Notes: generated from the letters alone by a model not told the origin. Shown: positions 17,881-35,100, counted from the stretch's first letter. The stretch: DNA of 35,448 nucleotides from an uncultured Candidatus Saccharibacteria bacterium (GCA_964413615.1 CAYPSL010000004.1:1-35448), one strand, 5' to 3'. Made by a program: numbers and translations.

Positions 17881-20800
17881 GTGCCTGTAATTCAGTTCTC
17901 GCGATTTTTTAGAGGAGATGCATTTCGGTTCGGCCTTGCTCGCGCTCTTCCGTTCACTATTATTTTCACTCTTGTCTTTAGCGGACTCGGGTTGTTTTAT
18001 CCGGAGAAAGCTTTAGCTGCGACTACTACCTATAATTCTGGTTCTGGTAATTTCGTCGTTCCTGCTGGGGTTACAAGCTTGCAGATTGAGGGTTGGGGTG
18101 CCGGCGGTGGCGGAGGTTCTGGAGAAACGGGTGCAGGATCGGGCGATGATGGTGGTGGAGGTGGTGGAGGTGGGTACTTTATAGAAACTGCCGCTTCGGT
18201 TACCCCTGGGCAAAACGTAGCATATAGCGTAGGTGCCGGAGGTGCTGGGCGTGCGCTTGATAGTGCAACAAACGGAGGTAATGGGGGCGCAACTACGGTA
18301 TCAACATTTTCATTAACGGCAAATGGCGGTACGGGCGGACAGGCTATTGATAATGGCGGCGCAGGAGGCGCAGGAGGAACGGCGAGCGGAGGAGACACAA
18401 ACACTACCGGAAGCGCGGGTACATCTACTGCTGCCGGAGGTAACGGTGGAGCTTCTCCAAACGGTGGCGCTGCGCAAACAACGGATGGCGCTGCTGGTAA
18501 TGCGCCGGGTGGCGGAGGTGCGAGTTCCGATGAAAGCCCTGGAGATTCAGGCGCTGGTGCTGCGGGGCGGGTTACATTTACATACACAGCGAGCTTAAGT
18601 ATTTCTGGTACGGTGTATTCCGATGAAGGAAGCACTACACTTGGAAGTAAGGGAATCGCTCTTTCGGTAAACGGCGCAGCTGCATCTTCAACTACAACAG
18701 CTGCGGCAAACGGAACATACACCCTTACAGGCGTAACTGCAGTTGCGGGGGATGTTCTTACAATCTATTTAGATGGCGAAACGGAGGATGCAGTTACGGT
18801 AACTGTTGCAAACGGCTCAGATTTAACGGGTATAAATTTATATCAGGATCGATTAATTACTCGCCATGATAATTCCAGCTCTCTTACGAATACGAATTTG
18901 GATACTGCGGACAATAACGCAGATGCAGATATTACCGCTATTTACGGAGTAAGCGGAGGCACGCTTACGTTAGCTGCTGACAAGCATTTATATATCCCTG
19001 CAAGTAATACGTATGCTCCTGGAGGGAACATTTCTCTCTCCGGAAATTTTACGAATGCAGGAACATTTACAAAGGGTACAGGCACCGTCACGTTTACCAA
19101 GGGGTCTTCAACTCAAACAGTAAACGGAGGAAGTAGTAGTTTTTATAATCTTACCCACTCTGGCGCTGGTACGCTGCAGCTTGCAACCAGCACGCTTACG
19201 GTGAGCAATGCTCTTACCAATAGTGCGGGCATACTCGACCTTGCAGGAATAAACCTCACAACAACGGGAGCTACTATTAGCAATACCGCAACAATTCAGC
19301 TACAGGGAGGGGAAACGGTTACCGGTTTTACGAACGATACCGATTCCGGAACGGTTAATTATAACGGTACAACAAGTTATGCGAGCTTAGCTGCAGGAGC
19401 TACCTATTACAACCTTACCTTTAACGGAAGCGGGGGAACATGGGCTTCTGCTGCTTCTACTGCAGTATATGGCGCCCTTACAGTTACAACGGGCACATAC
19501 AATGCCAATGGGCAAACCACAGCCGTAACCGGCCTTACCACCGTATCTGGCGGAACCTACAGCGCGTCTACTGCAACACAAACATTAACCGGAGGGTTAA
19601 CTATTTCTTCAGGAACGTTTACAGCGTCAACGGGATTAGTTGGAATTACGGATAATCTTTTAGTATCCGGAGGAACATTTACGGGGTCTTCGGGAACAGT
19701 AGATGTTTTGGGCAATGTTACCCTTTCAAGCGGTACACTCACCGCTCCATCGGGAACATTCACCGTTGCAGGTAACTGGAGTAAGAGCGGAGGAACGTTT
19801 ACCCCGGGAACCGGCACGGTTACGTTTAACAGGGCGACGTCTATGTCCACGAGCGCAACTGCACCAACTTCAGCGGCAACAGTGACTATTCCCGCGAGGG
19901 GTATTTTTCCAGGAAGCGTAGTGCCTTGGACAAATCCATCGAATGCGCTTGCGCAAGATGGCGTGTATGCAACAGCTACAATTAATGACAGTGATGATAC
20001 TGAAGCGCTCTGGCTTAGAGGGTTTAATTTTCGCGTTCCATCAAATGCAACAATCGTAGGAGTAACTGCGGCTGTTCGACGTAGTGGAGGCTCTGTTGTT
20101 GATGATTACCTTATTCAACTTATTGTGAATGGCGTATCTACGGGGGATAATAAAGCAGATACAGCAACTTCATGGGATCCTCTTGCAACAGTAAGTTACG
20201 GAGGAGCTGCGGATGGATGGGGGGCTTCCCTTACCCCGGCGCTTGTAAAAGATAGTTCAAATTTTGGAATTGCTATTGCTGCAAACGGTGGGAGTAATGG
20301 TGATAACGCAACAGCGAGTATTGATAATGCTACGCTCGATATTGCATATACTCTTGCGTCGGGTGATCAAACAATTGATTCCGGAGGTAGTAGCTTCTAC
20401 AACGTCACTCACTCTGGCGCAGGTACACTGCAACTCTCTACAAGCGCCCTTACTGTTACCAACAACTTTGTTAACTCCGCTGGTACCTATGACGCAAACG
20501 GACTTGCAACAACCGTAACCGGCCTTACCACCGTATCTGGCGGAACCTACAGCGCATCAACTGCAACACAAACCTTTACTGGAGGCCTCACTGTTAGTGG
20601 AGGAACGCTCACCGGAAGCTCTGGCGCAATTGACGTAGATGGAGATGTTACCCTTTCAAGCGGTACACTCACCGCTCCATCAGGAACATTCACCGTTGCA
20701 GGTAACTGGGCAAAGAGCGGAGGAACGTTTACTCCGGGAACGAATACCGTAACGTTCGACAAAGGTTCCTCAACCCAAACCCTTAACTCTGGTTCTTCTA

Positions 20801-23800
20801 GCTTCTACAACGTCACCCACTCTGGTGCTGGTACGCTGCAGCTTGCAACCAGTACGCTCACAATTACGAATGCTCTTACAAATAGCGGAGGGATATTTGA
20901 TCTTGCGGGAGTAAACCTTACAACAACAGGAGCTACTATTAGTAATACTGCAATTATTCGGCTTCAGGGCGGAGAAACTCTTACAGGGTTTACGAACGAT
21001 ACTGATTCGGGAACAGTTACCTATAATGGAACAAGTACATATGCTAGCCTTGTTGCGGGAAATTCGTATTACAACCTTACTTTTGACGGAAGTGGAGGAA
21101 CCTGGACGCTTGCAGCTACTCTTGATGTAAACGCAAACCTTACGATTACTACCGGAACACTTGCTGCGGGAAGCAATGCTATTACGCTTGCGGGAAATTG
21201 GAGTAATGCAGCTTCTTTCACAGAAGGCACGGGAACGGTTACGTTTGATGGTACTGGAGCACAAACGCTTACCGGCGAAACATTTTACAACTTAACAATT
21301 AACAATACGGCTGCATCTCCGGATGACAGTACTGATGTTGATAGTAGTGCTGCGGTAACGGTTTCAAACACGTTAACGGTAACAGATGGCCAGTTCCAGC
21401 CTACGACGGCTTCAGATTTTTCTGCAGTTACTATTTCAACGAACGGTATTTTAAAGCCTGATAGTGGAGCAGCTATTACGGTATCGGGAGCATGGAGTAA
21501 TTCAGGAACATTTACTGCAAATTCTGGAACGGTAACGTTGGATGGCGTAACGCAAACTGTTACTGGTGCTACAACCTTTTATAATCTTTCCAAAACAGAG
21601 GCAACGGATAATTCAACGGATGAAACAGTTACCTTTACTGCCAGCACGACATATACGATTACCAATACCCTTACCTTAAACGGAAGAGACACAAACGATA
21701 GAATTAATATCTTGTCGAGCAGTGGAGGGTCGAGATTTACTTTGGATGTAACAGGCGCTGCGCAATCGGGAGACTATTTGGATGTTACAGATTCCCAAGC
21801 TTCTACAAACAATATTACGTGTACGGATTGTGTGAATGGCGGAGGGAATGATGATGGAGAAGCTGCGCCTCATTGGATATTTATTACATCTTCTTCTATT
21901 GCGGGTACGGTATATTCCGATGAAGGGACAACTCCTCTTGGAAGTATGGGAATTGCCGTTTCTGTTAACGGTGCTGCTGCAGCCGCCACTACAACGAGTG
22001 CAGGGGATGGAACGTATACACTCTCTAACGTTGCGGTAGCGGCAGGGGATATTCTTACAATTTACCTTGATGGGAATACAGAAAAAGCAGTTACGGTCAC
22101 CGCAGCTACGGGGAATAACCTTACCGGAATCAATCTGTATCAGGATCGATTAATTACTCGGCATGATAATTCAGGTTCGCTCACGAATGCTAATCTTGAA
22201 ACGGCGGAAACAAATGCTGATTCGGATATCTCTAGTATTTACGCAGTAAGCGGAGGCACGCTTACGTTAGCCGCTGATAAGCATTTATATATTCCAGCTA
22301 GCCATACCTATGCTCCGGGAGGCGATATTTCTCTTTCGGGGAATTTTACGAATATTGGAACATATACAACAGGAACAAACACTGTAACGTTCACAAAGGG
22401 TGCGAGCACTCAAACGCTAAGGTCCGGCGGCTCCTCTTTCTACAACGTCACTCACTCTGGCGCAGGTACACTGCAACTCTCTACAAGCGCCCTTACTGTT
22501 ACCAACAACTTTGTTAACTCCGCTGGTACCTATGACGCAAACGGACTTGCAACAACCGTAACCGGCCTTACCACCGTATCTGGCGGAACCTACAGCGCAT
22601 CAACTGCAACACAAACCTTTACTGGAGGCCTCACTGTTAGTGGAGGAACGCTCACCGGAAGCTCTGGCGCAATTGACGTAGATGGAGATGTTACCCTTTC
22701 AAGCGGTACACTCACCGCTCCATCAGGAACATTCACCGTTGCAGGTAACTGGGCAAAGAGCGGAGGAACGTTTACTCCGGGAACGAATACCGTAACGTTC
22801 GACAAAGGTTCCTCAACCCAAACCCTTAACTCTGGTTCTTCTAGCTTCTACAACGTCACCCACTCTGGTGCTGGTACGCTGCAGCTTTCTACTAATGCCC
22901 TTACTGTTACAAATAACTTTACGAGTTCTGCAGGTACTTATGATGCAAACGGACTTGCAACGAGTGTAACCGCAACTACAACTGTTACTGATAGTACATA
23001 TACCGGCTCAACTGCTGCACAAACATTTTCCGGTACACTTTCATTAACAGGCGCAACTCTTACCACTACGGGTGCAGGGTCTTTCATACTAGGAAGCAAT
23101 GTTACGGGAAATTCTTCTGCCACTTCTTCTACAATCAGTGGCTCGCTTGATCTTGGCGGTTCAACAAGGACATTTACCATTGCGGATGGCGCCGCAACCA
23201 ATGACATTAGTATTTCCGCTGTTATTAGTAATGGCGGTGTTACAAAAGCAGGCGCTGGCAAAATGGTGCTATCTGGGACAAATACCTACACAGGAGCCAC
23301 TACTGTTTCTGCGGGTATTCTTAATATTCAAAATGTTAACGCAACAGGAACAACTGCAGGGGGAGTATCGGTAACAAGCGGAGCTGCGCTTGAAGTGCAG
23401 GGTGGAATTGCAGTCGGAGCCGAAGCTATTACATTAAACGGAACGGGAATATCTTCCGGAGGTGCACTTCGCAACATTAGCGGCGCAAACTCATTCTCGG
23501 GAACAATTACGTTAGGTTCGGCATCTTCTGTTGCGGTTGATGCAGGAAGCTTGGCCTTAAGCGGAGTTATTAGCGGGGGAAGCAACAGCTTCACAAAGAC
23601 TGGGCCTGAGACCCTCACCTTAAGCAATACGGCAACGGTCGGGAACTTTACTATATCTGCCGGTACAGTAGCTGCGGCAAGCAATACTATTAATGTGGGA
23701 GGAACTTGGAGTAACTCGGGAACGTTTACTCCAAGCACAAGCACGCTTACATTAACGGGTACATCTACATTTGCTGATACTACGTCGCTCTACAATCTCA

Positions 23801-26655
23801 CGATAAATGGAGTAGGGATTACGGTTACGCTCGGGGCTACTTTGAACGTGAGCAATAACCTTACGATTACTGCGGGTACGTTGGATGTATCTGCATCAAA
23901 CTATGCAATGAACATTGGTGGTAATTTCAGTAATGCAGGAACGCTTACTTCGCGATCTGGAACGACAACCTTTAATGGAACGAACCAAACTATTTTAGGG
24001 TCAGTAACATTTTATAATTTTGTAAAAACTGTCGTATCCGCTGCAACATTAACATTTGAGGCGGGATCAACGCAGACAATAAACGGAACGCTTACGCTGC
24101 AGGGCGCAGTTGGGCAACTATTAAGCTTAGTTTCTTCTGTTACGAATTCCGTATGGCATATTAACCCGATATCTTCACGAGTTGTTTCGTATTTGAATGT
24201 AAAAGACTCAACGAATGATGATGCGACAGAGATTGATTGTACGAATAACTGTACCGATTCGTTGAATAACACCAGGTGGTTATTCTCTATTCCTGATACT
24301 ACTGATCCTACGGTTTCCACATTTAGCCCAGCAGACAATGCAACGGGAGTATCTCAAACGGCAAATCTTGTAATTACGTTTGATGAATCAGTAACTGCTG
24401 TGGCTGCCAAGAACTTAACAATCAAAAAAACATCTGATAATTCCACCGTAGAAACAATAGCTGTAACGGGAGGCCTTGTGTCGGGAAGCGGAAGTGCGAC
24501 AATTACCGTAAACCCATCAACTACTCTTGATTTAAGTACTGAGTACTACATTCTTATTGATTCCGGTGCGTTCATTGATGGAGCTTCCAATGAATACGCG
24601 GGAATTGCGAGCACTACTACATGGAACTTTACTACTGCTGCATCTGATTCTACTGCCCCAACAGTTATAACTCTTGATCCAGAAGATGGTGAGACGGGCG
24701 TATCTCCGACAGCAAATCTTGTTATTACGTTTAGTGAAAATGTAAGCGCAGTTTCTGGCAAGAATATATACATTAAGAAGAATTCGGATGATTCTACGGT
24801 AGAAACTATCGCTGCGGACGCTTCGAAAGTAACAATAAGCGGAGACGAAGTAACTATTAATCCCGGAATTACACTTGACGATACTACTGCGTATTATGTG
24901 CTTATTGATTCCGGCGCGTTTATTGATGGAGCTAGCAATGCATATACCGGAATGAATTCTGATGAGAATTGGAATTTTACAACAGCGGATACAACAGCTC
25001 CTACTCTTTCTAGTGTGAATCCGGCTGATAACTCAACAGGAGTATCTGTAACCACGAACCTTGTACTTACATTTAATGAGGCAGTGACAAGGGTTTCGGG
25101 AAAATACGTTACGATTAGGAAGACTTCTGATAACAGTCTTGTTGAAGCAATCTTGGTAACGGGCAGTAATGTGTCAGGAAATGGAACTTCTATTATTACT
25201 TTGAACCCTGCTGTAACGCTTGATCAGAATGAAGGGTACTACATTACTATTAATTCCGGCGCGTTTATAGATGCTGCAAGTAACGAATACGCAGGGGTAT
25301 CTAGTGCAACTGCTTGGAATTTTACAACAGCGGATACAACTCCCACTCCAACTCCTGATCCAAGCGCAACGCCGACTCCTGGCCCTACGAGCGACCCCAC
25401 TCCAACACCTGATCCAACTCCGACAATCACCCCATGCTCATTCTGGGACATCTTGTGCTCAACTCCCACTCCAACTCCTGATCCAAGCGCAACGCCGACT
25501 CCTATAGTTCTCACTACTACCCCTACGCCAACCCCGCCAGTTAGTGTTGAGCAGAGGGTCACAAGGTTTATTACTGGTCTTTCTGGATTGAGTAGGGAAG
25601 ATATCGTGAAGTTTGCTCAAGAGCAGGGACCTACTATTGCGGCAACTGCCGTTGGGGCAACAGTAGCTTCTAGTATTCCGCTTCTGGCAAATATTTTCCC
25701 GCAACTTGCAAATGTTCTTCAGTTCTTAGGAGCTGCGCTTTCGCTCCATCGCCGGAAGACTCGATGGGGAATTGTAGTTGATAGCGATCTTGGTCGGCCT
25801 ATTGCTCATGCGGTTGTGCAAGTATTTGATGCAAAGTTTCATCAATTAAAAGACACGCAAGTAACAAATGCTGATGGGCAATTTGGATTCCTTCTGCCTC
25901 CCGGGAAATATTATGTTGTGGTTAATCAGCCCGGGTTCGTTTTCCCTGCACGTAAAAAACCTCCAACTGTGCTTCATTCCGGGGAGCGTATTTACTTGGG
26001 GGAAGAATTTGAGTGTGATGCTCGCGATCCGAATAAAATCCCGCGACTTATTGTGCCTATGGATCGTGAAGAGAAAACTCCACTCGCAAATATGTTGATT
26101 TGGAGATATGTAGAAAGATTCCTCGCATTTGTAGACGGGCTCGGAATTGTTCTCCTTATTGTGGGCGCAACTATTAACACGTTCTTCCTACTAACTGTTC
26201 CTGGTTACCTTAATATTTTGTTCGAAATTATTTATCTGCTGTTGTTTAGCGTGAAGATGTACATTTTAGTTTCTCATCAGCAAGGCCTTGGCGATGTTGT
26301 GGATGCAAAAACAAAATTACCGATCGATCTTGCAATTATGAGGTTGTATAACGCAAAAACAAATCGAATTGTTCAAACAAGAGTAACGAATATTCATGGT
26401 AAATTCTTCGTATTAGTACCAAAGGGTATATACACCGCGTCTGTTTCTAAGCAAGGGTACAAAACGATTACACAAGAAAATCTTTCTATCTCTGGAAAGA
26501 AATCTCAAGCACTGGAACTTCATTTCAAGCTTGAACAAGAGGGTGCAAAAAAAGAAGAAGTAGTATTTCCGAATATTGAAGACACAGAAAACATCGCGGT
26601 ACTAAAAAATAATTCCAACGGAATACAACTTCCTGGCAAGAAAAATAAAATTTAA
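17881..26655 (+). CDS. giant (2,924 aa) secreted/surface protein
   Basis: Uninterrupted 8.8-kb ORF with a GTG start behind an SD. Signal peptide ...PEKALA|A (cleavage after 18018). Domain order: Gly-rich domain, two duplicated beta-helix arms, PATR repeats, 3 Ig-like (Big_5/SbsA-type) domains, PT linker, C-terminal TM/CarboxypepD_reg module. Sub-regions are listed separately. Confidence 0.93.
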   Translation: MPVIQFSRFFRGDAFRFGLARALPFTIIFTLVFSGLGLFYPEKALAATTTYNSGSGNFVVPAGVTSLQIEGWGAGGGGGSGETGAGSGDDGGGGGGGGYFIETAASVTPGQNVAYSVGAGGAGRALDSATNGGNGGATTVSTFSLTANGGTGGQAIDNGGAGGAGGTASGGDTNTTGSAGTSTAAGGNGGASPNGGAAQTTDGAAGNAPGGGGASSDESPGDSGAGAAGRVTFTYTASLSISGTVYSDEGSTTLGSKGIALSVNGAAASSTTTAAANGTYTLTGVTAVAGDVLTIYLDGETEDAVTVTVANGSDLTGINLYQDRLITRHDNSSSLTNTNLDTADNNADADITAIYGVSGGTLTLAADKHLYIPASNTYAPGGNISLSGNFTNAGTFTKGTGTVTFTKGSSTQTVNGGSSSFYNLTHSGAGTLQLATSTLTVSNALTNSAGILDLAGINLTTTGATISNTATIQLQGGETVTGFTNDTDSGTVNYNGTTSYASLAAGATYYNLTFNGSGGTWASAASTAVYGALTVTTGTYNANGQTTAVTGLTTVSGGTYSASTATQTLTGGLTISSGTFTASTGLVGITDNLLVSGGTFTGSSGTVDVLGNVTLSSGTLTAPSGTFTVAGNWSKSGGTFTPGTGTVTFNRATSMSTSATAPTSAATVTIPARGIFPGSVVPWTNPSNALAQDGVYATATINDSDDTEALWLRGFNFRVPSNATIVGVTAAVRRSGGSVVDDYLIQLIVNGVSTGDNKADTATSWDPLATVSYGGAADGWGASLTPALVKDSSNFGIAIAANGGSNGDNATASIDNATLDIAYTLASGDQTIDSGGSSFYNVTHSGAGTLQLSTSALTVTNNFVNSAGTYDANGLATTVTGLTTVSGGTYSASTATQTFTGGLTVSGGTLTGSSGAIDVDGDVTLSSGTLTAPSGTFTVAGNWAKSGGTFTPGTNTVTFDKGSSTQTLNSGSSSFYNVTHSGAGTLQLATSTLTITNALTNSGGIFDLAGVNLTTTGATISNTAIIRLQGGETLTGFTNDTDSGTVTYNGTSTYASLVAGNSYYNLTFDGSGGTWTLAATLDVNANLTITTGTLAAGSNAITLAGNWSNAASFTEGTGTVTFDGTGAQTLTGETFYNLTINNTAASPDDSTDVDSSAAVTVSNTLTVTDGQFQPTTASDFSAVTISTNGILKPDSGAAITVSGAWSNSGTFTANSGTVTLDGVTQTVTGATTFYNLSKTEATDNSTDETVTFTASTTYTITNTLTLNGRDTNDRINILSSSGGSRFTLDVTGAAQSGDYLDVTDSQASTNNITCTDCVNGGGNDDGEAAPHWIFITSSSIAGTVYSDEGTTPLGSMGIAVSVNGAAAAATTTSAGDGTYTLSNVAVAAGDILTIYLDGNTEKAVTVTAATGNNLTGINLYQDRLITRHDNSGSLTNANLETAETNADSDISSIYAVSGGTLTLAADKHLYIPASHTYAPGGDISLSGNFTNIGTYTTGTNTVTFTKGASTQTLRSGGSSFYNVTHSGAGTLQLSTSALTVTNNFVNSAGTYDANGLATTVTGLTTVSGGTYSASTATQTFTGGLTVSGGTLTGSSGAIDVDGDVTLSSGTLTAPSGTFTVAGNWAKSGGTFTPGTNTVTFDKGSSTQTLNSGSSSFYNVTHSGAGTLQLSTNALTVTNNFTSSAGTYDANGLATSVTATTTVTDSTYTGSTAAQTFSGTLSLTGATLTTTGAGSFILGSNVTGNSSATSSTISGSLDLGGSTRTFTIADGAATNDISISAVISNGGVTKAGAGKMVLSGTNTYTGATTVSAGILNIQNVNATGTTAGGVSVTSGAALEVQGGIAVGAEAITLNGTGISSGGALRNISGANSFSGTITLGSASSVAVDAGSLALSGVISGGSNSFTKTGPETLTLSNTATVGNFTISAGTVAAASNTINVGGTWSNSGTFTPSTSTLTLTGTSTFADTTSLYNLTINGVGITVTLGATLNVSNNLTITAGTLDVSASNYAMNIGGNFSNAGTLTSRSGTTTFNGTNQTILGSVTFYNFVKTVVSAATLTFEAGSTQTINGTLTLQGAVGQLLSLVSSVTNSVWHINPISSRVVSYLNVKDSTNDDATEIDCTNNCTDSLNNTRWLFSIPDTTDPTVSTFSPADNATGVSQTANLVITFDESVTAVAAKNLTIKKTSDNSTVETIAVTGGLVSGSGSATITVNPSTTLDLSTEYYILIDSGAFIDGASNEYAGIASTTTWNFTTAASDSTAPTVITLDPEDGETGVSPTANLVITFSENVSAVSGKNIYIKKNSDDSTVETIAADASKVTISGDEVTINPGITLDDTTAYYVLIDSGAFIDGASNAYTGMNSDENWNFTTADTTAPTLSSVNPADNSTGVSVTTNLVLTFNEAVTRVSGKYVTIRKTSDNSLVEAILVTGSNVSGNGTSIITLNPAVTLDQNEGYYITINSGAFIDAASNEYAGVSSATAWNFTTADTTPTPTPDPSATPTPGPTSDPTPTPDPTPTITPCSFWDILCSTPTPTPDPSATPTPIVLTTTPTPTPPVSVEQRVTRFITGLSGLSREDIVKFAQEQGPTIAATAVGATVASSIPLLANIFPQLANVLQFLGAALSLHRRKTRWGIVVDSDLGRPIAHAVVQVFDAKFHQLKDTQVTNADGQFGFLLPPGKYYVVVNQPGFVFPARKKPPTVLHSGERIYLGEEFECDARDPNKIPRLIVPMDREEKTPLANMLIWRYVERFLAFVDGLGIVLLIVGATINTFFLLTVPGYLNILFEIIYLLLFSVKMYILVSHQQGLGDVVDAKTKLPIDLAIMRLYNAKTNRIVQTRVTNIHGKFFVLVPKGIYTASVSKQGYKTITQENLSISGKKSQALELHFKLEQEGAKKEEVVFPNIEDTENIAVLKNNSNGIQLPGKKNKI
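18019..18591 (+). other. N-terminal glycine-rich domain of the giant protein
   Basis: TYNSGSGNFVVPAGVTSLQIEGWGAGGGGGSG...GGGGGGGGYF...PGQNVAYSVGAGGAG...GGNGG...GGTGG...GRVTFTY. It resembles the Y-x-G-x-F-x-VP-x-GV...WGAGGGG glycine-rich domains seen in phage-tail-fibre-like and other surface proteins. Confidence 0.6.
18598..19140 (+). repeat. module A, copy 1 (small beta-sandwich + first beta-helix rungs)
   Basis: SISGTVYSDEG...LTIYLDGETEDAVTVT...INLYQDRLITRHDN...LAADKHLYIPAS. The paralogous copy lies exactly 3,297 nt (1,099 codons) downstream and is roughly four-fifths identical at protein level by eye. Confidence 0.85.
19141..19443 (+). repeat. module B, copy 1
   Basis: FYNLTHSGAGTLQLATSTLTVSNALTNSAGILDLAGINLTTTGATISNTATIQLQGGETVTGFTNDTDSGTVNYNGT...YYNLTFNGSGGTW. 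The paralogue lies 1,662 nt (554 codons) downstream. Confidence 0.85.
19831..20394 (+). other. single-copy insertion domain between duplicated beta-helix modules
   Basis: ...VVPWTNPSNALAQDGVYATATINDSDDTEALWLRGFNFRVPSNATIVGVTAAVRRSG...YLIQLIVNGVSTGDNKA...SWDPLATVSYGGAADGWGASLTPALVKDSSNFGIAIAA...ASIDNATLDIAY. It has alternating beta-strand character, is not repeated elsewhere in the protein, and matches no family I recognise. Confidence 0.6.
20395..20844 (+). repeat. 450-bp direct repeat, copy 1 (identical to 22438-22887 on base-by-base reading)
   Basis: I compared the two copies line by line and found no mismatch from TTCTACAACGTCACTCAC... to ...GGTACGCTGCAGCTT. The antisense ORFs 20547-20762 and 22590-22805 in the supplied track are 100% identical. 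The offset is 2,043 nt, or 681 codons. Confidence 0.92.
20803..21105 (+). repeat. module B, copy 2
   Basis: FYNVTHSGAGTLQLATSTLTITNALTNSGGIFDLAGVNLTTTGATISNTAIIRLQGGETLTGFTNDTDSGTVTYNGT...YYNLTFDGSGGTW. Confidence 0.85.
21895..22437 (+). repeat. module A, copy 2
   Basis: SIAGTVYSDEG...LTIYLDGNTEKAVTVT...INLYQDRLITRHDN...LAADKHLYIPAS. In-frame paralogue of 18598-19140. Confidence 0.85.
22438..22887 (+). repeat. 450-bp direct repeat, copy 2
   Basis: Same as 20395-20844. A third, diverged copy of the core (with one extra 20-aa rung) lies at about 19523-19830. Confidence 0.92.
23100..23700 (+). other. autotransporter-associated beta-strand (PATR-type) repeat region
   Basis: NGGVTKAGAGKMVLSGTNTYTGATTVSAGILNIQN, GGALRNISGANSFSGTITLGS, SGGSNSFTKTGPETLTLSNTATVGNFTISAGTV. 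These match the G-x-L-x-K-x-G-x-G-x-L-x-L-x-G-x-N-x-YTG-x-T-x-V-x-x-G-x-L consensus of PATR repeats. Confidence 0.75.
24295..25335 (+). repeat. three tandem Ig-like domains (SbsA/Big_5-type), about 115 aa each
   Basis: The unit D(T/S)T(D/A)PTV..(F/L)(S/D)P.D..TGVS.TANLVITF.E.V......K.+.IKK.SD.S.VE.I...........+T+NP...L...T.YY+LIDSGAFIDGASN.Y.G......WNFTTA occurs three times, starting near 24295, 24643 and 24988. Confidence 0.85.
25338..25503 (+). repeat. Pro/Thr-rich linker containing two identical 43-bp direct repeats (25338-25380 and 25461-25503)
   Basis: AACTCCCACTCCAACTCCTGATCCAAGCGCAACGCCGACTCCT occurs twice, 123 nt apart, and encodes TPTPTPDPSATPTP. The copies flank the only Cys pair of the linker (C-SFWDIL-C). 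Confidence 0.85.
25546..26655 (+). other. C-terminal membrane module of the giant protein
   Basis: Layout: hydrophobic segment, CarboxypepD_reg-like domain, hydrophobic helices, second CarboxypepD_reg-like domain. Hydrophobic GPTIAATAVGATVASSIPLLANIF..VLQFLGAALSL then HRRKTR. Beta-sandwich 1: WGIVVDSDLGRPIAHAVVQVFD...TNADGQFGFLLPPGKYYVVVNQPGFVF. Helices: GLGIVLLIVGATINTFFLL and NILFEIIYLLLFSVKMYILV. Beta-sandwich 2: GDVVDAKTKLPIDLAIMRLYNAKTNRIVQTRVTNIHGKFFVLVPKGIYTASVSKQGYKT. It is collinear with and homologous to 34063-35047. Confidence 0.8.
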
Positions 26656-26784: not shown

Positions 26785-27540
26785 ATGGATGAAATGAGGG
26801 ATACGCATATTCCTCCATCCGGAGGAATATCTAACGATCAAATTGCTGTAGCAATTATGCTGTTGAATCAGAATGTTAAAGCTATTAAAGACCAGCTTTC
26901 TTCTCGGGACCATGTAGTATCTTCGGATCGGCCGAGAAAGTATTTCAAGAAAAAGATTGTAGCTCCGCCAACGACAAAGCTTTCCACTGTTTTTGTTTCT
27001 GATGATAGGGACCCGCACATTGGCAGCTCTGACGGAGTAAGCGTTCTTGAAGTAGAATTGGGCTTTGTGTGTTTTCATCGTCAAATGAAATTCAGACAAG
27101 TGCTTCATGCGTTTACGAGAGGGGTGCTTGTTCAGGGGAAGTCTCTTCAAATTCAGAACGGATGCGGGAGGGATCATCTTGAGGCTCTGCTTTTGCAAAA
27201 TCCAGAAATCGTAGAACAGTGCAGAGCGATTGTTTGCGTAGGAGAGTCTAAGACCTTAGCTGATGGCACCCTTCGCGTACCTTGTTTGGATTCGAAAGGA
27301 GCGTTCTTTTTTCCTGCAACGAATGTATGGTCTGAAGATGTGTGGTTTATGGGAATTGTGAGGCCGATTGTTCGATCAAGTGAAGAACATTCAGTTCCTC
27401 TTGAATTGCTTCATCTCTATGAACAGACATACGTTCCTTTTGCGCCGGATATAGAATCTCCCAAAACAGTTGTTCCTTGTAAGGTTGATACTGTCGTTGC
27501 TTGTGGCGATGATACGAAAACAACCGAAAACTTACCTTAA
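26785..27540 (+). CDS. hypothetical protein (no recognisable family)
   Basis: 251-aa ORF. AAGGAG at 26772-26777 lies 7 nt before the ATG. It is preceded by a 129-nt very AT-rich spacer and followed by an intrinsic terminator. Cys-rich, with no TM helix or signal peptide evident. Confidence 0.65.
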   Translation: MDEMRDTHIPPSGGISNDQIAVAIMLLNQNVKAIKDQLSSRDHVVSSDRPRKYFKKKIVAPPTTKLSTVFVSDDRDPHIGSSDGVSVLEVELGFVCFHRQMKFRQVLHAFTRGVLVQGKSLQIQNGCGRDHLEALLLQNPEIVEQCRAIVCVGESKTLADGTLRVPCLDSKGAFFFPATNVWSEDVWFMGIVRPIVRSSEEHSVPLELLHLYEQTYVPFAPDIESPKTVVPCKVDTVVACGDDTKTTENLP

Positions 27541-31672: not shown

Positions 31673-31690
31673 GTAGTATCATTGAAGGGT

Positions 31691-34600
31691 ATGCATATAC
31701 CCCGTGCTACTATTCGAATTCGCCGGAAAATCCTTCCGCTTGCATGGCTTTTTGAGCTCGGAAGGCTTGCTATTATTACGCTCCTGATAAGCGTGGCTGG
31801 CATTGGAATTGTTCGATATGTACAGCATTCTTCTGAAGTTTCCGCGCTTGAGTTTACCCAAAGAATTGTTGGAGAGTTGGGCGCTGCAGAGGGCGTTCTT
31901 AGTGTTGCAGTTGCAGATATGCAGCGCGATGGTCGGCAAGATATTGTATCTGCCGGAAGGGACGGAGTGAATGTGTATATCCGGCAAGGAAACGGAACGT
32001 TTAAAAAGAAGATTATTGACGAGGTCCGGGGAGAACGCATTATTATCCGAGATTTTAATAAAGATGGATTGCAGGACATGCTGGTGAGCGTTGATGCAAA
32101 CCCGAGCGTAAAACTGTATCTAAATAATGGAGATACGGAATTTTCAAAAACCTGGATAGGAACCGGTTCCCGTGCTGCAATTGCGGCAGGCGATATTGAT
32201 GGCGATGGCGCTGTGGATATTGTCACTTCTACAGAGCAGGGCGGAGAATTTGTTCTGCAGCGATGGATGAATAACGGAACGGGAACATTTACGGCAACTA
32301 CGCTTGCCACAAATACGGGAGTGCGTGCGATTGCTATTGCGGATATTAACGACAACCGTTACCAGGATATTATTATTGGGGGAAGCCAAGGGCTTCAGCA
32401 TTACGATACTTCCAATGGATATTCTTGGAGTCGAGCAGATATTGATGATACTGATCAAACGACGTTTTCTACTATTTCTGTTGGCGATGTGAACGGTGAT
32501 AGTGATACAGACATTGTGATAGGCGATCAGTCTAGCGATACGGTTGCGTATTACCGCCATCTCCAGCATTCATCGTTTGAACGAATTGAGGTCTCAACTG
32601 ATACGGATGCTGCCGCAACACACATCATCGACTTTAATGAGGATGGGTATACGGATATTATTGCAACGTCTCAGGACGAAGATAGTGTGTACTGGTTTCA
32701 AAATGACGGAAAAGATTCTTTTACAAGGCACACTATTGCAACAAACCTTCAAAGCGTATTTGGGTTTTTTGCTTCAGATATTGATGGGGATAATGATTTT
32801 GACTTTGTAGCAGGTGACCACTTCCGCGGGACGATTTATTGGTATGAGAGAACTCACGCCAAGCCAACTGCAAGCGCTCCTTCTGAAATTGCACAGATGA
32901 CTGACGGTTCGGGCAGGATTATATTTACAACTTCAGTTGCTCAGCAGGATTCGTTTCGAACAAGTCTGCGGGTTCAATATTCGCTTGATGGGACTACTTG
33001 GTATAAGGCATACATTTCTAATGCAAAAACAGATAAAGGGAAAATAGATGTTAATCACGATAATGCCTATCAGATCGGAACAAGTAATCCGATTGATACA
33101 GACATCTATTCGGCGGTAAAACTTACCTTAACGTGGGATACGAAATCTACAAAAAATTTAGGAAATCCGATCGTGAGCGATCTTTCCAATGTTCGTATTC
33201 GCCTTACTCCGAAAGATTCTGTGGGGCTTGGGGTTGCTACTTCTAGTCAGGATTTGCGAATTGATAACGGGGCACCTCGGGTGAGTGGTGGACTTACGGC
33301 AACGAGCTCAAACAATGGTTCTGTGGAGTTGTCTTGGAGTAAACCGCAGGACAGGTCATCGATTTCGTATCGAGTGTACTACGGGACAGACTCTGAAGAT
33401 GTGCGCAATCAAAGTTCCCATGCTTGGGACGACTCGAACGATGCGCCTTTAAATGAAAGTGACACAACAAGTACGACTATTACCGGGCTTTCTTCTGGGA
33501 GCGAGTATACATTTAAGCTTGTTGCAAAGGATAGTTTTGGAAATGAAAGCGCATGGCCGTCTACATCGATGACGGCAACATCATCCTCTGCTGGGGAAAG
33601 TCCTACGCCAACAGTAAGCCCTACTCCTACGGGGAGCCCGGACTTAGGTGCTATTGTAGGTGAAAATTCAACGCCTAGCCCCACCCCTGTTCCGACCATT
33701 CAATCAAGGCCGCCTATTGCTGATGCGGGGCCTAATCAAATTGTGAACCCTTCTGCGCTTGTTATTCTCGATGGGTCTGCTTCGAGCGATTTTGGGGGCG
33801 GCAGCGTTTCGTATATATGGAAGCAGCTGGCGGGCCCAGGGGTGGAATTACTTTCTGATCGCACCGCAACTCCATCGTTTTCTGCCGGTGCGGATGGGGG
33901 AACATATATTTTTCAGCTTACAGTGAAAGATACCCTAGGTGCTTCTGCGCTCGATTTAGTTACTGTTTCTGTGAAGCCTCTACCAGAAGTTTCTGCCGCC
34001 CCTATTGTAAGCAGTGCTCCGCTCGCATCTGTTGTGCCGAATGCCCTTGTAGAGCAGCGGTCGGAATTTTCGCTTATTGCTTCAGGATTTTTGAAACCTA
34101 TAAATACGTTTTTGTTTATTGTCGCACTTATCCTAACTTCCTTTTCTGTAGTAGAGAGGGTTATGCATGGGCTTTCCTCTGGATCTAGGGGCGGTGCACG
34201 GGCTTTGGGCTTTGATGCAAGCGCTTCGCATGGCAAAGTTGCTCATTATAAGACGGGTGTCCCAATTGCGGGCGCTCAAGTGATGATATATGGTCCGGAC
34301 GGAAAACTTCGGTCCACGGAGCGCACAAATGAAAAAGGGGAGTTTCCTTCTTCCCTGCCCGTTGGCGAGTATACGTTTGGGGTACATGCGCCAGGATTTA
34401 TTTTTTCGACCAGTGCTTCCGCAACCGTAAAGCCATCAAAGGGGATTGTGTACACGGGGGGTAAAGTTTCCATAACAGACCCCTCAAAACCGATCTCTCT
34501 TATTATTCCAATGAAGCCTTCTCGGCAAGAAGTTACCTCTCTCGCGTCTAGCGGTATTCATCTGTGGCAGTTAATACAGTGGTTTACTCGAATTATTTCT

Positions 34601-35047
34601 TGGCCAATATTTATTGTGGGGTCTCTTTGTAATACGGTGCTCGTATTTTTGGAGCCAGGGTTTCTCTTGCTGGGGTTAGAGGTTATGTATGTGGTTTTGA
34701 TTATCGTGAAATTGGTACTTGAGGTGCGTGTCGGCCCAGCCTACGGCCTTGTTCGCAACGCAATAACTCATATTCCTTTAGACTTGGCTATTGTGCGGCT
34801 ATTTGATCAATCTACGAATCGACTCGTGATGACTCGTATTGCAAATGCAGAGGGGAAGTTTTTCGCCCTTCCGTCTTCCGGTACGTATATGATATCTGTA
34901 ACAAAGCCAGGGTACGCGCCTTTTTCTCGAGAGAATGTTGTGATTAATTCGGGTAGTGATTCCGTGTTGCAAATAACAGCAGACTTAATGCCATTGGTTC
35001 CTTTGGCTGGGGATAGGCTCGCAAGCGTACAGACGGGCGTTATTTGA
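31691..35047 (+). CDS. large surface protein
   Basis: ATG 31691; the track gives TTG 31682. Domain order: N-terminal TM anchor, 7-bladed FG-GAP/VCBS beta-propeller, beta-sandwich, FN3, PT linker, PKD-like domain, and a C-terminal TM/CarboxypepD_reg module. TM: LAIITLLISVAGIGIV. There are seven D-x-(D/N)-x-D-G/x..D+V loops: DMQRDGRQDIV, DFNKDGLQDML, DIDGDGAVDIV, DINDNRYQDII, DVNGDSDTDIV, DFNEDGYTDII, DIDGDNDFDFV. FN3: SVELSWSKP...YRVYYG...TITGLSSGSEYTFKLVAKDSFGNES. PKD-like: PIADAGPNQIV...LDGSASSD...YIWKQLAGPGV...TYIFQLTVKD. Confidence 0.9.
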   Translation: MHIPRATIRIRRKILPLAWLFELGRLAIITLLISVAGIGIVRYVQHSSEVSALEFTQRIVGELGAAEGVLSVAVADMQRDGRQDIVSAGRDGVNVYIRQGNGTFKKKIIDEVRGERIIIRDFNKDGLQDMLVSVDANPSVKLYLNNGDTEFSKTWIGTGSRAAIAAGDIDGDGAVDIVTSTEQGGEFVLQRWMNNGTGTFTATTLATNTGVRAIAIADINDNRYQDIIIGGSQGLQHYDTSNGYSWSRADIDDTDQTTFSTISVGDVNGDSDTDIVIGDQSSDTVAYYRHLQHSSFERIEVSTDTDAAATHIIDFNEDGYTDIIATSQDEDSVYWFQNDGKDSFTRHTIATNLQSVFGFFASDIDGDNDFDFVAGDHFRGTIYWYERTHAKPTASAPSEIAQMTDGSGRIIFTTSVAQQDSFRTSLRVQYSLDGTTWYKAYISNAKTDKGKIDVNHDNAYQIGTSNPIDTDIYSAVKLTLTWDTKSTKNLGNPIVSDLSNVRIRLTPKDSVGLGVATSSQDLRIDNGAPRVSGGLTATSSNNGSVELSWSKPQDRSSISYRVYYGTDSEDVRNQSSHAWDDSNDAPLNESDTTSTTITGLSSGSEYTFKLVAKDSFGNESAWPSTSMTATSSSAGESPTPTVSPTPTGSPDLGAIVGENSTPSPTPVPTIQSRPPIADAGPNQIVNPSALVILDGSASSDFGGGSVSYIWKQLAGPGVELLSDRTATPSFSAGADGGTYIFQLTVKDTLGASALDLVTVSVKPLPEVSAAPIVSSAPLASVVPNALVEQRSEFSLIASGFLKPINTFLFIVALILTSFSVVERVMHGLSSGSRGGARALGFDASASHGKVAHYKTGVPIAGAQVMIYGPDGKLRSTERTNEKGEFPSSLPVGEYTFGVHAPGFIFSTSASATVKPSKGIVYTGGKVSITDPSKPISLIIPMKPSRQEVTSLASSGIHLWQLIQWFTRIISWPIFIVGSLCNTVLVFLEPGFLLLGLEVMYVVLIIVKLVLEVRVGPAYGLVRNAITHIPLDLAIVRLFDQSTNRLVMTRIANAEGKFFALPSSGTYMISVTKPGYAPFSRENVVINSGSDSVLQITADLMPLVPLAGDRLASVQTGVI
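34063..35047 (+). other. C-terminal membrane module, homologous to 25546-26655
   Basis: FLFIVALILTSFSVV. Then GKVAHYKTGVPIAGAQVMIYGPDGKLRSTERTNEKGEFPSSLPVGEYTFGVHAPGFIF. Then helices WPIFIVGSLCNTVLVFL and LLLGLEVMYVVLIIVKLVL. Then GLVRNAITHIPLDLAIVRLFDQSTNRLVMTRIANAEGKFFALPSSGTYMISVTKPGYAPF. Confidence 0.8.
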
Positions 35048-35084
35048 GCAGAAAAAAGAAGGGCTGGAATTTTTTTCGTAACAA

Positions 35085-35093
35085 TGCTACAAA
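35085..35093 (+). promoter_or_regulatory. extended -10-like element TGcTACAAA, 7 nt upstream of ATG 35101
   Basis: TGC TACAAA at 35085-35093, then 7 nt (catacct), then ATG, with no SD. The geometry is consistent with a leaderless transcript. Confidence 0.4.
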
Positions 35094-35100
35094 CATACCT

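What the first reader, a model, noticed from the sequence alone, without database searches (positions are those of the whole stretch)
25546..26655. The two largest surface proteins share a C-terminal membrane module that could be an uncharacterised anchor or export device
The last roughly 330 aa of the 2,924-aa protein and the last roughly 320 aa of the FG-GAP protein (34063-35047) are collinear and clearly homologous. Their passenger regions are otherwise unrelated.

Both modules have the same order. A Pro/Thr-rich linker is followed by a hydrophobic segment and a basic patch. Next comes a CarboxypepD_reg-like beta-sandwich (G.V.....G.PIA.A.V.+.......TN..G.F...LP.G.Y...V..PGF+F), then a conserved LI+PM stretch and two or three hydrophobic helices (..I+VG...NT....L.PG+L.L..E++Y+++..VK). 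A second beta-sandwich carries a strongly conserved core (G.V.+A.T..P+DLAI+RL++..TNR+V.TR+.N..GKFF.L...G.Y..SV.K.GY).

I see no LPXTG, PEP-CTERM, T9SS C-terminal domain, S-layer homology domain or autotransporter barrel. Beta-sandwich domains interleaved with TM helices at the C-terminus are not a sorting or anchoring architecture I can name. The topology is also puzzling, because at least one sandwich domain would seem to face the cytoplasm unless the first hydrophobic segment is re-entrant.

My inference is that this is a dedicated C-terminal anchoring, sorting or self-export module for large adhesin-like proteins in this lineage.
Basis: partly seen in the sequence, partly recalled or inferred. 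Interest (0 to 1): 0.78.

Follow-up and report, generated by a model that had tools for sequence, protein, structure and literature searches.

The report
Shared membrane anchor of giant adhesins
Two unrelated giant surface proteins of an uncultured ultra-small (Patescibacteria) bacterium end in the same ~300-residue module of three membrane helices and two small beta-sandwich domains. The module is undescribed, sits at the C-terminus of hundreds of different surface proteins in metagenomes, and most likely fastens them to the cell membrane.

Summary
The C-termini of the 2,924-aa protein (17881-26655) and the 1,121-aa FG-GAP protein (31682-35047) are homologous (BLASTP E 3e-42, 35% identity over 259 aa). 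Both have the same layout: TM1, basic collar, CarboxypepD_reg sandwich, TM2-TM3 hairpin, second sandwich.

The module arose by internal duplication of a [helix-basic-(W)G-sandwich] unit (hhalign E 1e-34). No Pfam, NCBIfam or PDB entry covers more than the sandwiches.

A profile search of 1.84 billion representatives gives 806 hits below 1e-30. It ends a median of 12 residues from the C-terminus, behind passengers of 0-3,400 aa made of extracellular domain types.

Charge bias and single-TM1 statistics predict passenger outside and both sandwiches cytoplasmic.

No sortase-like or other enzyme is a conserved neighbour. In a sister subfamily the module gene follows a WxLIP-like gene, so the locus resembles a surface-complex operon.

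Best reading: a Sec-inserted, three-helix C-terminal membrane anchor with cytoplasmic stopper domains. It is not a sorting signal or a self-export device. It is a new variant of a known kind. Sidedness and the role of the sandwiches are inferred, not shown.

The parts
17881..18021 (+). Protein A: N-terminal Sec-type signal sequence (basic n-region, hydrophobic core ALPFTIIFTLVFSGLGLF, ALA/A site)
   Evidence: Translation; hydropathy segment aa 14-41. No dedicated signal-peptide predictor was run.
18022..25335 (+). Protein A: passenger of about 2,440 aa (Gly-rich N-terminus, beta-strand/PATR repeats, three Big_5 Ig-like domains)
   Evidence: Pfam Big_5 1.4e-39, PATR 1.8e-10; TIGR02601.
25336..25545 (+). 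Protein A: Pro/Thr-rich linker with a Cys pair (CSFWDILC, nt 25435-25458); presumed wall-spanning spacer
   Evidence: Translation. The C-x-x-W-D-I-L-C motif recurs in P0007, P0008, P0010, P0012 and P0013.
25546..25632 (+). Protein A module: extracellular juxtamembrane helices (module residues 1-29)
   Evidence: AF2 helices 2-13 and 17-27. Conserved in A-type homologues.
25633..25698 (+). Protein A module: TM1 (residues 30-51, TIAATAVGATVASSIPLLANIF); predicted stop-transfer, out to in
   Evidence: Hydropathy. Family-wide this is the one TM-grade window upstream of sandwich 1, although A's own segment does not reach the dG<=3 cut-off (modA scored 0 windows). AF2 helix has low confidence.
25699..25767 (+). 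Protein A module: amphipathic juxtamembrane helix plus basic collar HRRKTRW ending in the conserved W-G
   Evidence: K+R 3.66 per 8 residues, net +3.4, across 152 modules. W74 is 81% and G75 is 94% conserved.
25768..26067 (+). Protein A module: beta-sandwich 1 (CarboxypepD_reg / transthyretin-like) with beta extension ending in LIVPMDRE
   Evidence: Pfam PF13620; AF2 strands 75-174, pLDDT 81-94; Foldseek hits to carboxypeptidase D TTL domain, TM 0.85.
26083..26196 (+). Protein A module: TM2 (AF2 helix 180-217, membrane core about 191-216)
   Evidence: Hydropathy 2743-2777; AF2; conserved G207 at 95%.
26206..26280 (+). Protein A module: TM3 (helix 221-245) after a 3-5 residue P-G turn
   Evidence: Hydropathy; AF2; P219 71% and Y230 91% conserved.
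26290..26532 (+). Protein A module: beta-sandwich 2 (CarboxypepD_reg-like), the best conserved part
   Evidence: Pfam PF13715/PF13620; AF2 pLDDT 90-96; G249 99% and G285 100% conserved.
26533..26655 (+). Protein A: low-complexity charged C-terminal tail and stop codon
   Evidence: AF2 pLDDT below 50. Not conserved.
31682..34003 (+). Protein B: signal sequence or anchor (aa 16-49) and passenger (FG-GAP/VCBS propeller, fn3, PKD)
   Evidence: Pfam FG-GAP_3 1.1e-33, K319L-like PKD 4.8e-18, fn3 2.5e-9; hydropathy.
34094..34177 (+). Protein B module: single TM1 (core INTFLFIVALILTSFSVV) followed by ERVMH..SRGGAR
   Evidence: Hydropathy; one dG window of 1.8; AF2 single helix 31-58.
34232..34519 (+). 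Protein B module: beta-sandwich 1
   Evidence: Pfam PF13620 1.8e-21; AF2 strands 77-172; BLASTP alignment to A.
34538..34729 (+). Protein B module: TM2-TM3 helical hairpin (helices 179-216 and 220-242)
   Evidence: Hydropathy 970-1024; AF2.
34745..34987 (+). Protein B module: beta-sandwich 2
   Evidence: Pfam; AF2 strands 248-328, pLDDT 85-93; BLASTP.
34988..35047 (+). Protein B: short C-terminal tail and stop codon
   Evidence: Translation; AF2 low confidence.

Best explanation
The shared region is a modular C-terminal integral-membrane anchor.

Proposed mechanism (inferred unless marked):
1. Each protein is exported by its N-terminal Sec signal.
2. TM1 stops translocation, leaving the passenger and the Pro/Thr-rich spacer outside.
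3. An arginine/lysine collar and beta-sandwich 1 stay in the cytoplasm.
4. TM2 and TM3 insert as a tight hairpin.
5. A second basic junction and beta-sandwich 2 also stay in the cytoplasm.

The result is a three-helix anchor with two folded cytoplasmic domains pressed against the inner leaflet. I propose these act as stoppers, or 'rivets', that keep very large, load-bearing adhesins from being pulled out of the membrane. They may also offer a cytoplasmic docking surface.

The module arose by duplication of a [helix-basic-(W)G-sandwich] unit. It is a portable cassette fused behind many different extracellular passengers in Candidatus Andersenbacteria and in more distant uncultured relatives.

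Shown: homology, domain order, C-terminal position, passenger diversity, internal duplication, charge bias.
Inferred: sidedness, Sec/stop-transfer insertion, stopper function.
For: - Homology between A and B.
- Two CarboxypepD_reg domains in each module.
- Same secondary-structure order in both AF2 models.
- Family size: 806 representatives below 1e-30.
- Position: 152 of the 162 family sequences collected (top 150 representatives plus earlier hits) are full modules, ending a median of 12 aa from the C-terminus. Passengers run from 0 to 3,411 aa.
- Passenger content in 43 representatives is extracellular domain types only: fn3, PKD, FG-GAP, Big_5, BNR, cohesin.
- Signal sequences: 72 of 101 full-length proteins have an N-terminal hydrophobic segment.
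- Charge bias over 152 modules: net +3.4 just after TM1, +1.3 before TM2, +1.1 after TM3; -0.2 before TM1; about 0 in the 5-residue TM2-TM3 loop.
- Number of passes: the stretch before sandwich 1 has one TM-grade window in 94 of 144 proteins and two in 1 of 144. With the same method, the TM2/3 stretch has two windows in 84 of 144. B and its orthologue P0019 have room for only one helix.
- P0006 has a short acidic N-tail with no Lys or Arg, then TM1, then RRRKDRW.
- Internal duplication: hhalign 99.9%, E 1.2e-34; the second BLASTP HSP has E 2e-8.
- No known anchor or sorting family matches.
- No conserved enzyme neighbour.
- In 11-14 of 69 sister loci the module gene closes a cassette with a WxLIP-like membrane-anchored surface protein. 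This fits a role in surface-complex anchoring.
Against: - CarboxypepD_reg / transthyretin-like sandwiches are normally extracytoplasmic. Cytoplasmic copies would be unusual.
- Sidedness rests only on the positive-inside rule and simple hydrophobicity scales. No dedicated topology predictor or experiment was available.
- AF2 confidence for TM1 is low and pTM is only 0.38-0.41, so the relative domain arrangement is unknown.
- In many members a second, weaker hydrophobic helix follows TM1, and hhalign aligns it with TM3. A symmetric [hairpin+sandwich] x2 layout with the sandwiches outside therefore cannot be formally excluded.
- The 'rivet' role is an inference from architecture alone.
- The taxonomic range beyond Andersenbacteria could not be named.
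Confidence: 0.6

Rival explanations
1. Sandwiches outside. The first hydrophobic block is a helical or re-entrant hairpin, so the chain returns to the outside. The module is then two [hairpin+sandwich] units whose beta-sandwiches sit between membrane and wall, acting as wall-binding or spacer domains at the base of the adhesin.
For: - CarboxypepD_reg-like, SdrD-B and CnaB folds are typical extracellular stalk domains (Foldseek hits).
- Many members have two consecutive hydrophobic helices with a Pro/Asn hinge before the basic cluster.
- hhalign aligns the second of these helices with TM3.
- Such sandwiches also occur in passengers (P0126, L033).
Against: - All Lys/Arg clusters would lie outside and both turns inside would be uncharged, a strong violation of the positive-inside rule.
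- The second helix reaches TM-grade hydrophobicity in only 1-6 of 144 members.
- B-type modules have only about 29 uncharged residues there, enough for one pass.
Confidence: 0.15
2. Transmembrane coupling device. The anchor is not passive. The cytoplasmic sandwich pair binds a cytoplasmic partner, or the hairpins oligomerise, so that adhesin engagement outside is linked to events inside. This would resemble an integrin or a motility adhesin.
For: - The sandwiches, especially the second, are the best conserved part of the proteins. That is more than a simple stopper would seem to need.
- B has an FG-GAP, integrin-alpha-like propeller outside.
- G207 and Y230 in the hairpin are conserved, which suggests specific helix packing.
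- A small cytoplasmic-type unknown protein follows module genes in three loci.
Against: - No partner was identified.
- No conserved neighbour is found across the family.
- Most conserved residues are the generic CarboxypepD_reg core (G..F, G.Y).
- The C-terminal tails are low-complexity and carry no Pfam domains.
Confidence: 0.15
3. Sorting signal. TM1 plus the basic cluster acts like an LPXTG or PEP-CTERM-type tripartite signal recognised by a dedicated transpeptidase or protease. The enzyme would detach the passenger, and the rest of the module serves as a recognition handle.
For: The order of linker, hydrophobic helix and basic cluster resembles tripartite sorting signals.
Against: - There is no conserved motif N-terminal to TM1 across the family.
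- There is no LPXTG or PEP motif.
- About 260 conserved residues follow the basic cluster, unlike any known sorting signal.
- No sortase-, exosortase- or rhombosortase-like neighbour was found in 87 loci.
Confidence: 0.05
4. Self-export or pore module. The module forms a channel that translocates its own passenger or other cargo.
For: Only a weak HlyIII hit (E 0.098) and the presence of PATR 'autotransporter' repeats in passenger A.
Against: - There is no beta-barrel and there are only three helices.
- N-terminal Sec signals are present.
- The lineage is assumed to be monoderm (own knowledge), so no outer membrane has to be crossed.
- The HlyIII hit is far below the cut-off (12.7 against 26.2 bits).
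Confidence: 0.03

Closest known systems
C-terminal transmembrane anchors of monoderm surface proteins (e.g. Listeria ActA; the TM helix of WxLIP)
   Same: An N-terminal Sec signal, an extracellular functional part, a disordered or proline-rich wall-spanning spacer, then a hydrophobic helix followed by basic residues that retains the protein in the cytoplasmic membrane (bioRxiv 10.1101/2020.11.24.396366; PMC10599100). The WxLIP-like neighbours in the sister loci end in just such a TM plus basic tail.
   Different: Those anchors are one helix with a short tail. Here there are three helices and two conserved folded domains (about 300 aa), duplicated internally and conserved as a family across hundreds of proteins.
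Sortase (LPXTG) and exosortase / archaeosortase (PEP-CTERM, PGF-CTERM) sorting signals
   Same: A portable C-terminal element shared by many otherwise unrelated surface proteins of one lineage. The order is linker, hydrophobic helix, basic cluster.
   Different: No signature motif. The element is not at the extreme C-terminus, because about 260 residues follow it. No dedicated enzyme gene lies nearby. Anchoring is presumably non-covalent.
WxL surface-protein clusters of Firmicutes (small WxL, large WxL, WxLIP = DUF916+DUF3324+TM)
   Same: In 11-14 of 69 sister loci the order is one to three small secreted proteins, then a WxLIP-like protein, then a large multi-domain surface protein with its anchoring element at the C-terminus. 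This mirrors the cluster logic described in PMC10599100.
   Different: No WxL domain is detectable. WxLIP similarity is below Pfam's cut-off, although PDB EfmWxLIP1 scores 7e-8. The large protein ends in the TM/sandwich module rather than a peptidoglycan-binding WxL domain. No such cassette is present in this window.
CarboxypepD_reg / transthyretin-like and CnaB / SdrD-B beta-sandwich domains
   Same: Both sandwiches score above Pfam's gathering threshold. They superpose on the carboxypeptidase D TTL domain (TM 0.85, rmsd 1.6 A).
   Different: Known examples are soluble extracytoplasmic domains in enzymes, TonB-dependent receptors and adhesin stalks. Here each one is fused directly behind a membrane helix and a basic collar, and is predicted to be cytoplasmic.
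Retention modules of type 1-secreted RTX adhesins (LapA, MpIBP) and integrins (analogy from my own knowledge, not tested)
   Same: The principle is similar: a folded domain on the cell side that cannot pass the translocation path retains a giant adhesin. For B, an FG-GAP propeller outside is joined through the membrane to an intracellular part.
   Different: No sequence or fold relationship. Those systems plug an outer-membrane channel or signal through single-pass heterodimers.

Membership tests
Pfam CarboxypepD_reg (PF13620) / CarbopepD_reg_2 (PF13715) | HMM score above the gathering cut-off (32.3 / 32.2 bits) | tested here: met
   A module scores 69.2 and 43.2 bits; B module scores 76.7 bits. 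Two stretches in each. This applies to the sandwiches only, not to the module as a whole.
Sortase substrate (LPXTG cell-wall sorting signal) | LPXTG-type motif followed by a hydrophobic helix and basic tail at the extreme C-terminus | tested here: not met
   No LP.TG in either protein. The relaxed-pattern hits lie inside sandwiches or the tail. About 260 residues follow the basic cluster.
Sortase substrate (LPXTG cell-wall sorting signal) | Sortase gene in the genome, often adjacent | tested here: inconclusive
   None in the 35-kb window or in 87 related loci. Whole genomes could not be searched.
Exosortase / archaeosortase substrates (PEP-CTERM, PGF-CTERM and similar) | Signature tripeptide immediately before a terminal TM helix and Arg-rich end | tested here: not met
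   No PEP motif. PGF occurs only inside the sandwich cores (PGF[VI]F). No NCBIfam sorting-domain model hit the modules.
T9SS C-terminal domain | Por_Secre_tail-type beta-sandwich at the extreme C-terminus, in a diderm with T9SS | tested here: not met
   No such Pfam or NCBIfam hit at E<=1. The terminal sandwich is CarboxypepD_reg and is preceded by TM helices.
S-layer homology (SLH) anchoring | SLH domains | tested here: not met
   No SLH hit in either full-length protein at E<=1.
Type 5 autotransporter | C-terminal 12-stranded beta-barrel translocator | tested here: not met
   No autotransporter beta-domain hit. AF2 shows helices plus two small sandwiches. Only the PATR passenger repeats are present in A.
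WxL surface-protein cluster | [quoted passage not shown] | tested here: not met
   Window and Andersenbacteria loci: no WxLIP-like or c0-like gene. Sister loci: a WxLIP-like gene is present (PDB 7e-8; Pfam below cut-off), but no WxL domain.
Simple C-terminal TM-anchored surface protein (ActA type) | Single TM helix close to the C-terminus with a short cytoplasmic tail | tested here: not met
   Three helices and two folded domains. It works like this class but is not a member of it.
New family defined here ([TM-basic-(W)G-sandwich] x2 C-terminal module) | Full-length match to the module profile at the C-terminus of a signal-peptide-bearing protein | tested here: met
   A: profile positions 14-345 at residues 2555-2891 of 2,924. 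B: 406 bits, residues 780-1113 of 1,124.
New family defined here ([TM-basic-(W)G-sandwich] x2 C-terminal module) | Membrane topology (passenger out, sandwiches in) | not testable with these tools
   Only charge-bias and hydrophobicity statistics are available. No topology predictor, model coordinates or experiment.

The most novel reading that the evidence does not exclude
The module is an active transmembrane coupler rather than a passive anchor. The paired cytoplasmic beta-sandwiches would dock a cytoplasmic partner, or cluster through the conserved hairpin, so that binding of the giant adhesins to a host cell is transmitted into the symbiont or is controlled from inside. This would be a bacterial, integrin-like inside-out/outside-in adhesion system specific to ultra-small episymbiotic bacteria.
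Probability: 0.15. Interest if true: 0.85.

Novelty: new variant of a known kind. Interest (0 to 1): 0.6.

Why it matters
Patescibacteria (the Candidate Phyla Radiation) are thought to live attached to other cells, but how they display and hold their giant adhesins is essentially unknown.

A recognisable C-terminal anchor cassette gives a sequence handle for cataloguing the surface proteome of these uncultured lineages, much as LPXTG, PEP-CTERM or the T9SS C-terminal domain do for other phyla. At least about 145 clusters at 50% identity carry the full module among the 150 best hits, and 806 hits fall below 1e-30.

The module also defines a candidate new Pfam/NCBIfam family. If the predicted topology holds, it would be an unusual case of transthyretin-like sandwiches working on the cytoplasmic face of the membrane.

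The link to WxLIP-like genes in a sister subfamily suggests that WxL-type surface-complex logic extends beyond Firmicutes. This is a lead only, because the lineage of those metagenomic loci was not determined.

Tried and rejected
- Literature: five full-text searches for the module, for CarboxypepD_reg in CPR, or for CPR adhesin anchors found nothing relevant. Only the ActA paper was useful, as an analogy.
- Protein search with a diverse alignment: the word-indexed search with A3 returned almost only Andersenbacteria sequences already seen.
- Organism names: two cluster look-ups of 20 representatives named only Andersenbacteria. The wider taxonomic range stays unknown.
- C-terminal extensions: I scanned the 15 members with tails longer than 60 aa for domains that would reveal sidedness. 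They are only low-complexity acidic or proline-rich tails.
- Weak hits treated as chance or fold-level noise: HlyIII (E 0.098), NikL-family ECF subunit (E 0.004, sandwich only) and CHU_0125 OmpA-like (21 bits against a cut-off of 620).
- Multi-repeat giants in the profile hit list (P0025, P0027, P0028, P0035, P0117, P0146): these are arrays of CarboxypepD_reg repeats without the TM module and were excluded.
- The small secreted proteins ('c0') tested as possible WxL domains: no Pfam or PDB support.
- My first attempt to measure the uncharged stretch before the basic cluster was confounded by scattered charges. A window-based count replaced it.

Full report
**Setting.** All long ORFs in the window lie on the + strand. 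Most are housekeeping genes: ArgRS, IleRS, RecO, TGT, a class II aaRS, an M16 peptidase, an AI-2E transporter, TatD, MgsA and LeuRS. Close homologues of the two large proteins and of their neighbours come from MAGs named Candidatus Andersenbacteria / Anderseniibacteriota, which belong to the Parcubacteria within the Patescibacteria. One such locus, L001, carries a TatD with 74% identity and the N-terminus of the giant protein with 88% identity. The window is therefore from an Andersenbacteria-type genome.

**The observation.** Protein A (17881-26655, 2,924 aa) and protein B (31682-35047, 1,121 aa) have unrelated passengers. A has a Gly-rich region, PATR repeats and three Big_5 domains. B has an FG-GAP propeller, fn3 and PKD domains.
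- Their C-termini align collinearly with E 3e-42 and 35% identity over 259 residues.
- Each has two CarboxypepD_reg domains above Pfam's cut-off.
- Hydropathy shows an N-terminal signal-type segment in both, one hydrophobic segment before the first sandwich, and a double-length hydrophobic block between the sandwiches.
- AlphaFold2 on 22- and 19-sequence alignments gives the same order for both: helix or helices, sandwich (about 100 aa), a helical hairpin with a 3-residue turn, sandwich (about 80 aa), disordered tail. Mean pLDDT is 76 and 72, the sandwiches reach 85-96, and pTM is only about 0.4.

The central block is two helices, not three. The B start coordinate is one base out of frame.

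**Anatomy and origin.** Profile-profile comparison of the first unit (TM1 region plus sandwich 1) with the second (TM3 plus sandwich 2) gives probability 99.9% and E 1.2e-34 over 91 columns. The alignment runs from the preceding helix through the basic junction and the conserved (W)G into the sandwich. BLASTP also pairs sandwich 1 of A with sandwich 2 of B (E 2e-8). The module is therefore an internal duplication of a [helix-basic cluster-(W)G-sandwich] unit joined by one extra helix. The duplication is even clearer in a divergent subfamily, where both units read [RK]n-PWG-x-V-[YF]-D ... NIP-x-D. The family-wide conserved positions are W74/G75, G249, the generic sandwich core (G111, G120-x-Y122, G285-x-F287, G294-x-Y296) and, in the hairpin, G207, P219 and Y230.

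**Distribution.** A profile of eight modules, searched against 1.84 billion cluster representatives, found 8,897 hits at E<=1e-3, 3,937 at <=1e-10 and 806 at <=1e-30.
It ends a median of 12 residues from the C-terminus. Fifteen have longer tails, and these are low-complexity.
- The N-terminal part ranges from 0 to 3,411 residues, with a median of 386.
- Of 101 full-length proteins with passengers longer than 120 aa, 72 have an N-terminal hydrophobic segment.
- Passengers of 43 representatives contain only extracellular domain types: fn3 in 13, PKD in 8, FG-GAP in 7, Big_5 in 4, plus BNR, cohesin, Big_9/13 and LDL-receptor class B.
- A GTDB genome scan returned 16 loci, all of Andersenbacteria type. 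A metagenome scan with a divergent subfamily returned 69 more loci, again with the module at the C-terminus of proteins of 300-3,038 aa.
- Source annotations call these proteins 'hypothetical', 'carboxypeptidase-like regulatory domain-containing' or 'VCBS repeat-containing'. The module is not recognised as an entity.

**Topology.** Across 152 modules I measured net charge for each segment:

| Segment | Net charge |
|---|---|
| 15 residues before TM1 | -0.2 |
| 8 residues after TM1 (3.7 Lys/Arg) | +3.4 |
| Stretch before TM2 | +1.3 |
| 5-residue TM2-TM3 turn | about 0 |
| 6 residues after TM3 | +1.1 |

On a Hessa-type scale, the 70 residues before sandwich 1 contain exactly one TM-grade window in 94 of 144 proteins and two in only one. 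The same method finds two windows in the TM2/3 stretch in 84 of 144. In B and its orthologue P0019 there is physically room for one helix only.

P0006 starts with a 30-residue acidic tail lacking Lys or Arg, followed by TM1 and RRRKDRW. This is a classic N-out/C-in arrangement. By the positive-inside rule (established knowledge), the passenger is outside and both sandwiches are cytoplasmic.

This is a prediction. The alternative is a four-pass layout with the sandwiches outside. It is suggested by the weaker second helix after TM1 in many members and by the usual extracellular location of this fold. It would put all basic clusters outside, and I rate it at about 0.15.

**What it is not.**
- No LPXTG or PEP motif is present, and PGF occurs only inside the sandwich cores.
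- No T9SS C-terminal domain, SLH, WxL or autotransporter barrel hit appears at E<=1.
- No NCBIfam sorting-domain model matches.
- PDB sequence and Foldseek searches hit only single transthyretin-like, CnaB or SdrD-B domains.
- No conserved enzyme neighbour exists. A lies between TatD and an unknown 251-aa protein. B lies between LeuRS and a nucleotidyltransferase, and this order is conserved in four to five related loci and looks like plain synteny. The distant homologue P0020 lies between rpsP and enolase.

Sorting by a dedicated enzyme and self-export are therefore unsupported.

**Context in a sister subfamily.** I clustered 657 neighbour ORFs from all loci. This revealed a same-strand cassette in 11-14 of the 69 metagenomic loci: one to three small secreted proteins ('c0'), then a protein of about 310 aa ('c1'), then the module gene.
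- c1 has a signal peptide, two Ig-like domains and a C-terminal TM plus basic tail.
- Nine of eleven c1 members hit Pfam WxLIP_PGBD (DUF916), though below the cut-off. The c1 profile hits the solved Enterococcus faecium WxLIP1 at E 7e-8.
- WxLIP is the membrane-anchored partner in Firmicutes WxL surface-protein clusters, where a large WxL protein carries host-binding domains N-terminally and its anchoring domain C-terminally (PMC10599100). In these loci the module-bearing protein occupies that position.
- c0 has no detectable WxL domain, but its profile also matches the passengers of two module proteins.
- No c0 or c1 gene is in this window or in the Andersenbacteria loci.

This context supports a surface-anchoring role by analogy only.

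**Mechanism proposed.** Sec export proceeds through the N-terminal signal. TM1 acts as a stop-transfer anchor. The Pro/Thr-rich spacer reaches through the wall, as in ActA-type membrane-anchored proteins of monoderms (bioRxiv 10.1101/2020.11.24.396366). The TM2-TM3 hairpin adds two more helices. The two basic-collared sandwiches sit under the membrane as folded stoppers. The homology, order, position, duplication and charge bias are shown. The insertion route, sidedness and stopper role are inferred. A docking or signalling role for the sandwiches is not excluded.

**Verdict.** This is a real, statistically solid and widespread but undescribed C-terminal anchor module. It is a new variant of the known class of C-terminal membrane anchors, with an unusual predicted cytoplasmic pair of transthyretin-like domains. 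'Sorting' and 'self-export' are not.

Noticed in passing
window 26785-27540 (+); L001:3390-4214; L013:4012-4659: A 251-aa protein with no Pfam hit and no TM segment lies directly downstream of protein A. Homologues lie directly downstream of module-bearing genes in two other Andersenbacteria loci (phmmer E 3e-12 and 4e-6). They share the motif HL..L...HPE...I.C.G.S...G..VPCL. It could be a partner or just synteny.
   Followed up: partly
L019, L020, L033, L035, L047, L052, L059, L062, L064, L066, L082 (e.g. L047:38-9140): In a sister subfamily there is a conserved cassette: one to three small secreted 'c0' proteins, a WxLIP-like (DUF916/DUF3324-type) membrane-anchored protein, then the module-bearing large protein. 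It resembles Firmicutes WxL clusters, but no WxL domain is detectable.
   Followed up: partly
L033:3416-4129, L047:1032-2210, L064:2903-3991 and others; also passengers L070:6594-8933 and L051:7554-8804: The 'c0' family consists of secreted proteins of 230-430 aa with the N-terminal motif MSS.NY.I..DSIN.GG..S.S..Y...DT.GE.A.G. It has no Pfam or PDB match. It occurs both free-standing and fused in front of the anchor module.
   Followed up: partly
window 20395-20844 and 22438-22887: A perfect 450-nt direct repeat lies inside the giant gene, with further copies at 60-80% identity. This is either a very recent internal duplication of a beta-strand repeat block or a possible assembly collapse or expansion point.
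   Followed up: partly
window 25435-25458 (aa 2519-2526 of protein A): A Cys pair, C-S-F-W-D-I-L-C, is embedded in the Pro/Thr-rich linker. The C-x-[FW]-W-D-I-[LF]-C motif recurs in the linkers of several Andersenbacteria homologues (P0007, P0008, P0010, P0012, P0013). Some of these have a second pair (ICN.LGC) just before TM1. It may be a disulfide-closed loop at the wall or membrane interface.
   Followed up: no
P0001, P0002, P0008, P0010, P0012-P0014 (homologues, not in the window): Many A-type homologues share a passenger domain of about 150 aa with no Pfam hit (FP.DPGP..C...T.V.FYY....AVR.G.VPFRIL.N ... W.C.G..GYD). It appears to be another lineage-specific extracellular domain.
   Followed up: no
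window 8776-10740 (+): A 654-aa DUF11-domain protein has an N-terminal TM segment (aa about 74-100) and a charged N-terminal tail. It is a third putative surface protein in the window, but it is anchored N-terminally and lacks the module.
   Followed up: partly
window 13756-14118 (+): A small DUF559 / MTES_1575 endonuclease-like gene (Vsr-like fold family) sits between a class II aminoacyl-tRNA synthetase and an M16 peptidase.
   Followed up: no
window 35080-35448 (+): The window ends in the start of a nucleotidyltransferase gene (MQAIILMAGKGTRM...). The order LeuRS, FG-GAP module protein, NTP-transferase, then UDP-glucose dehydrogenase on the opposite strand is conserved in related loci L011 and L016.
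   Followed up: partly
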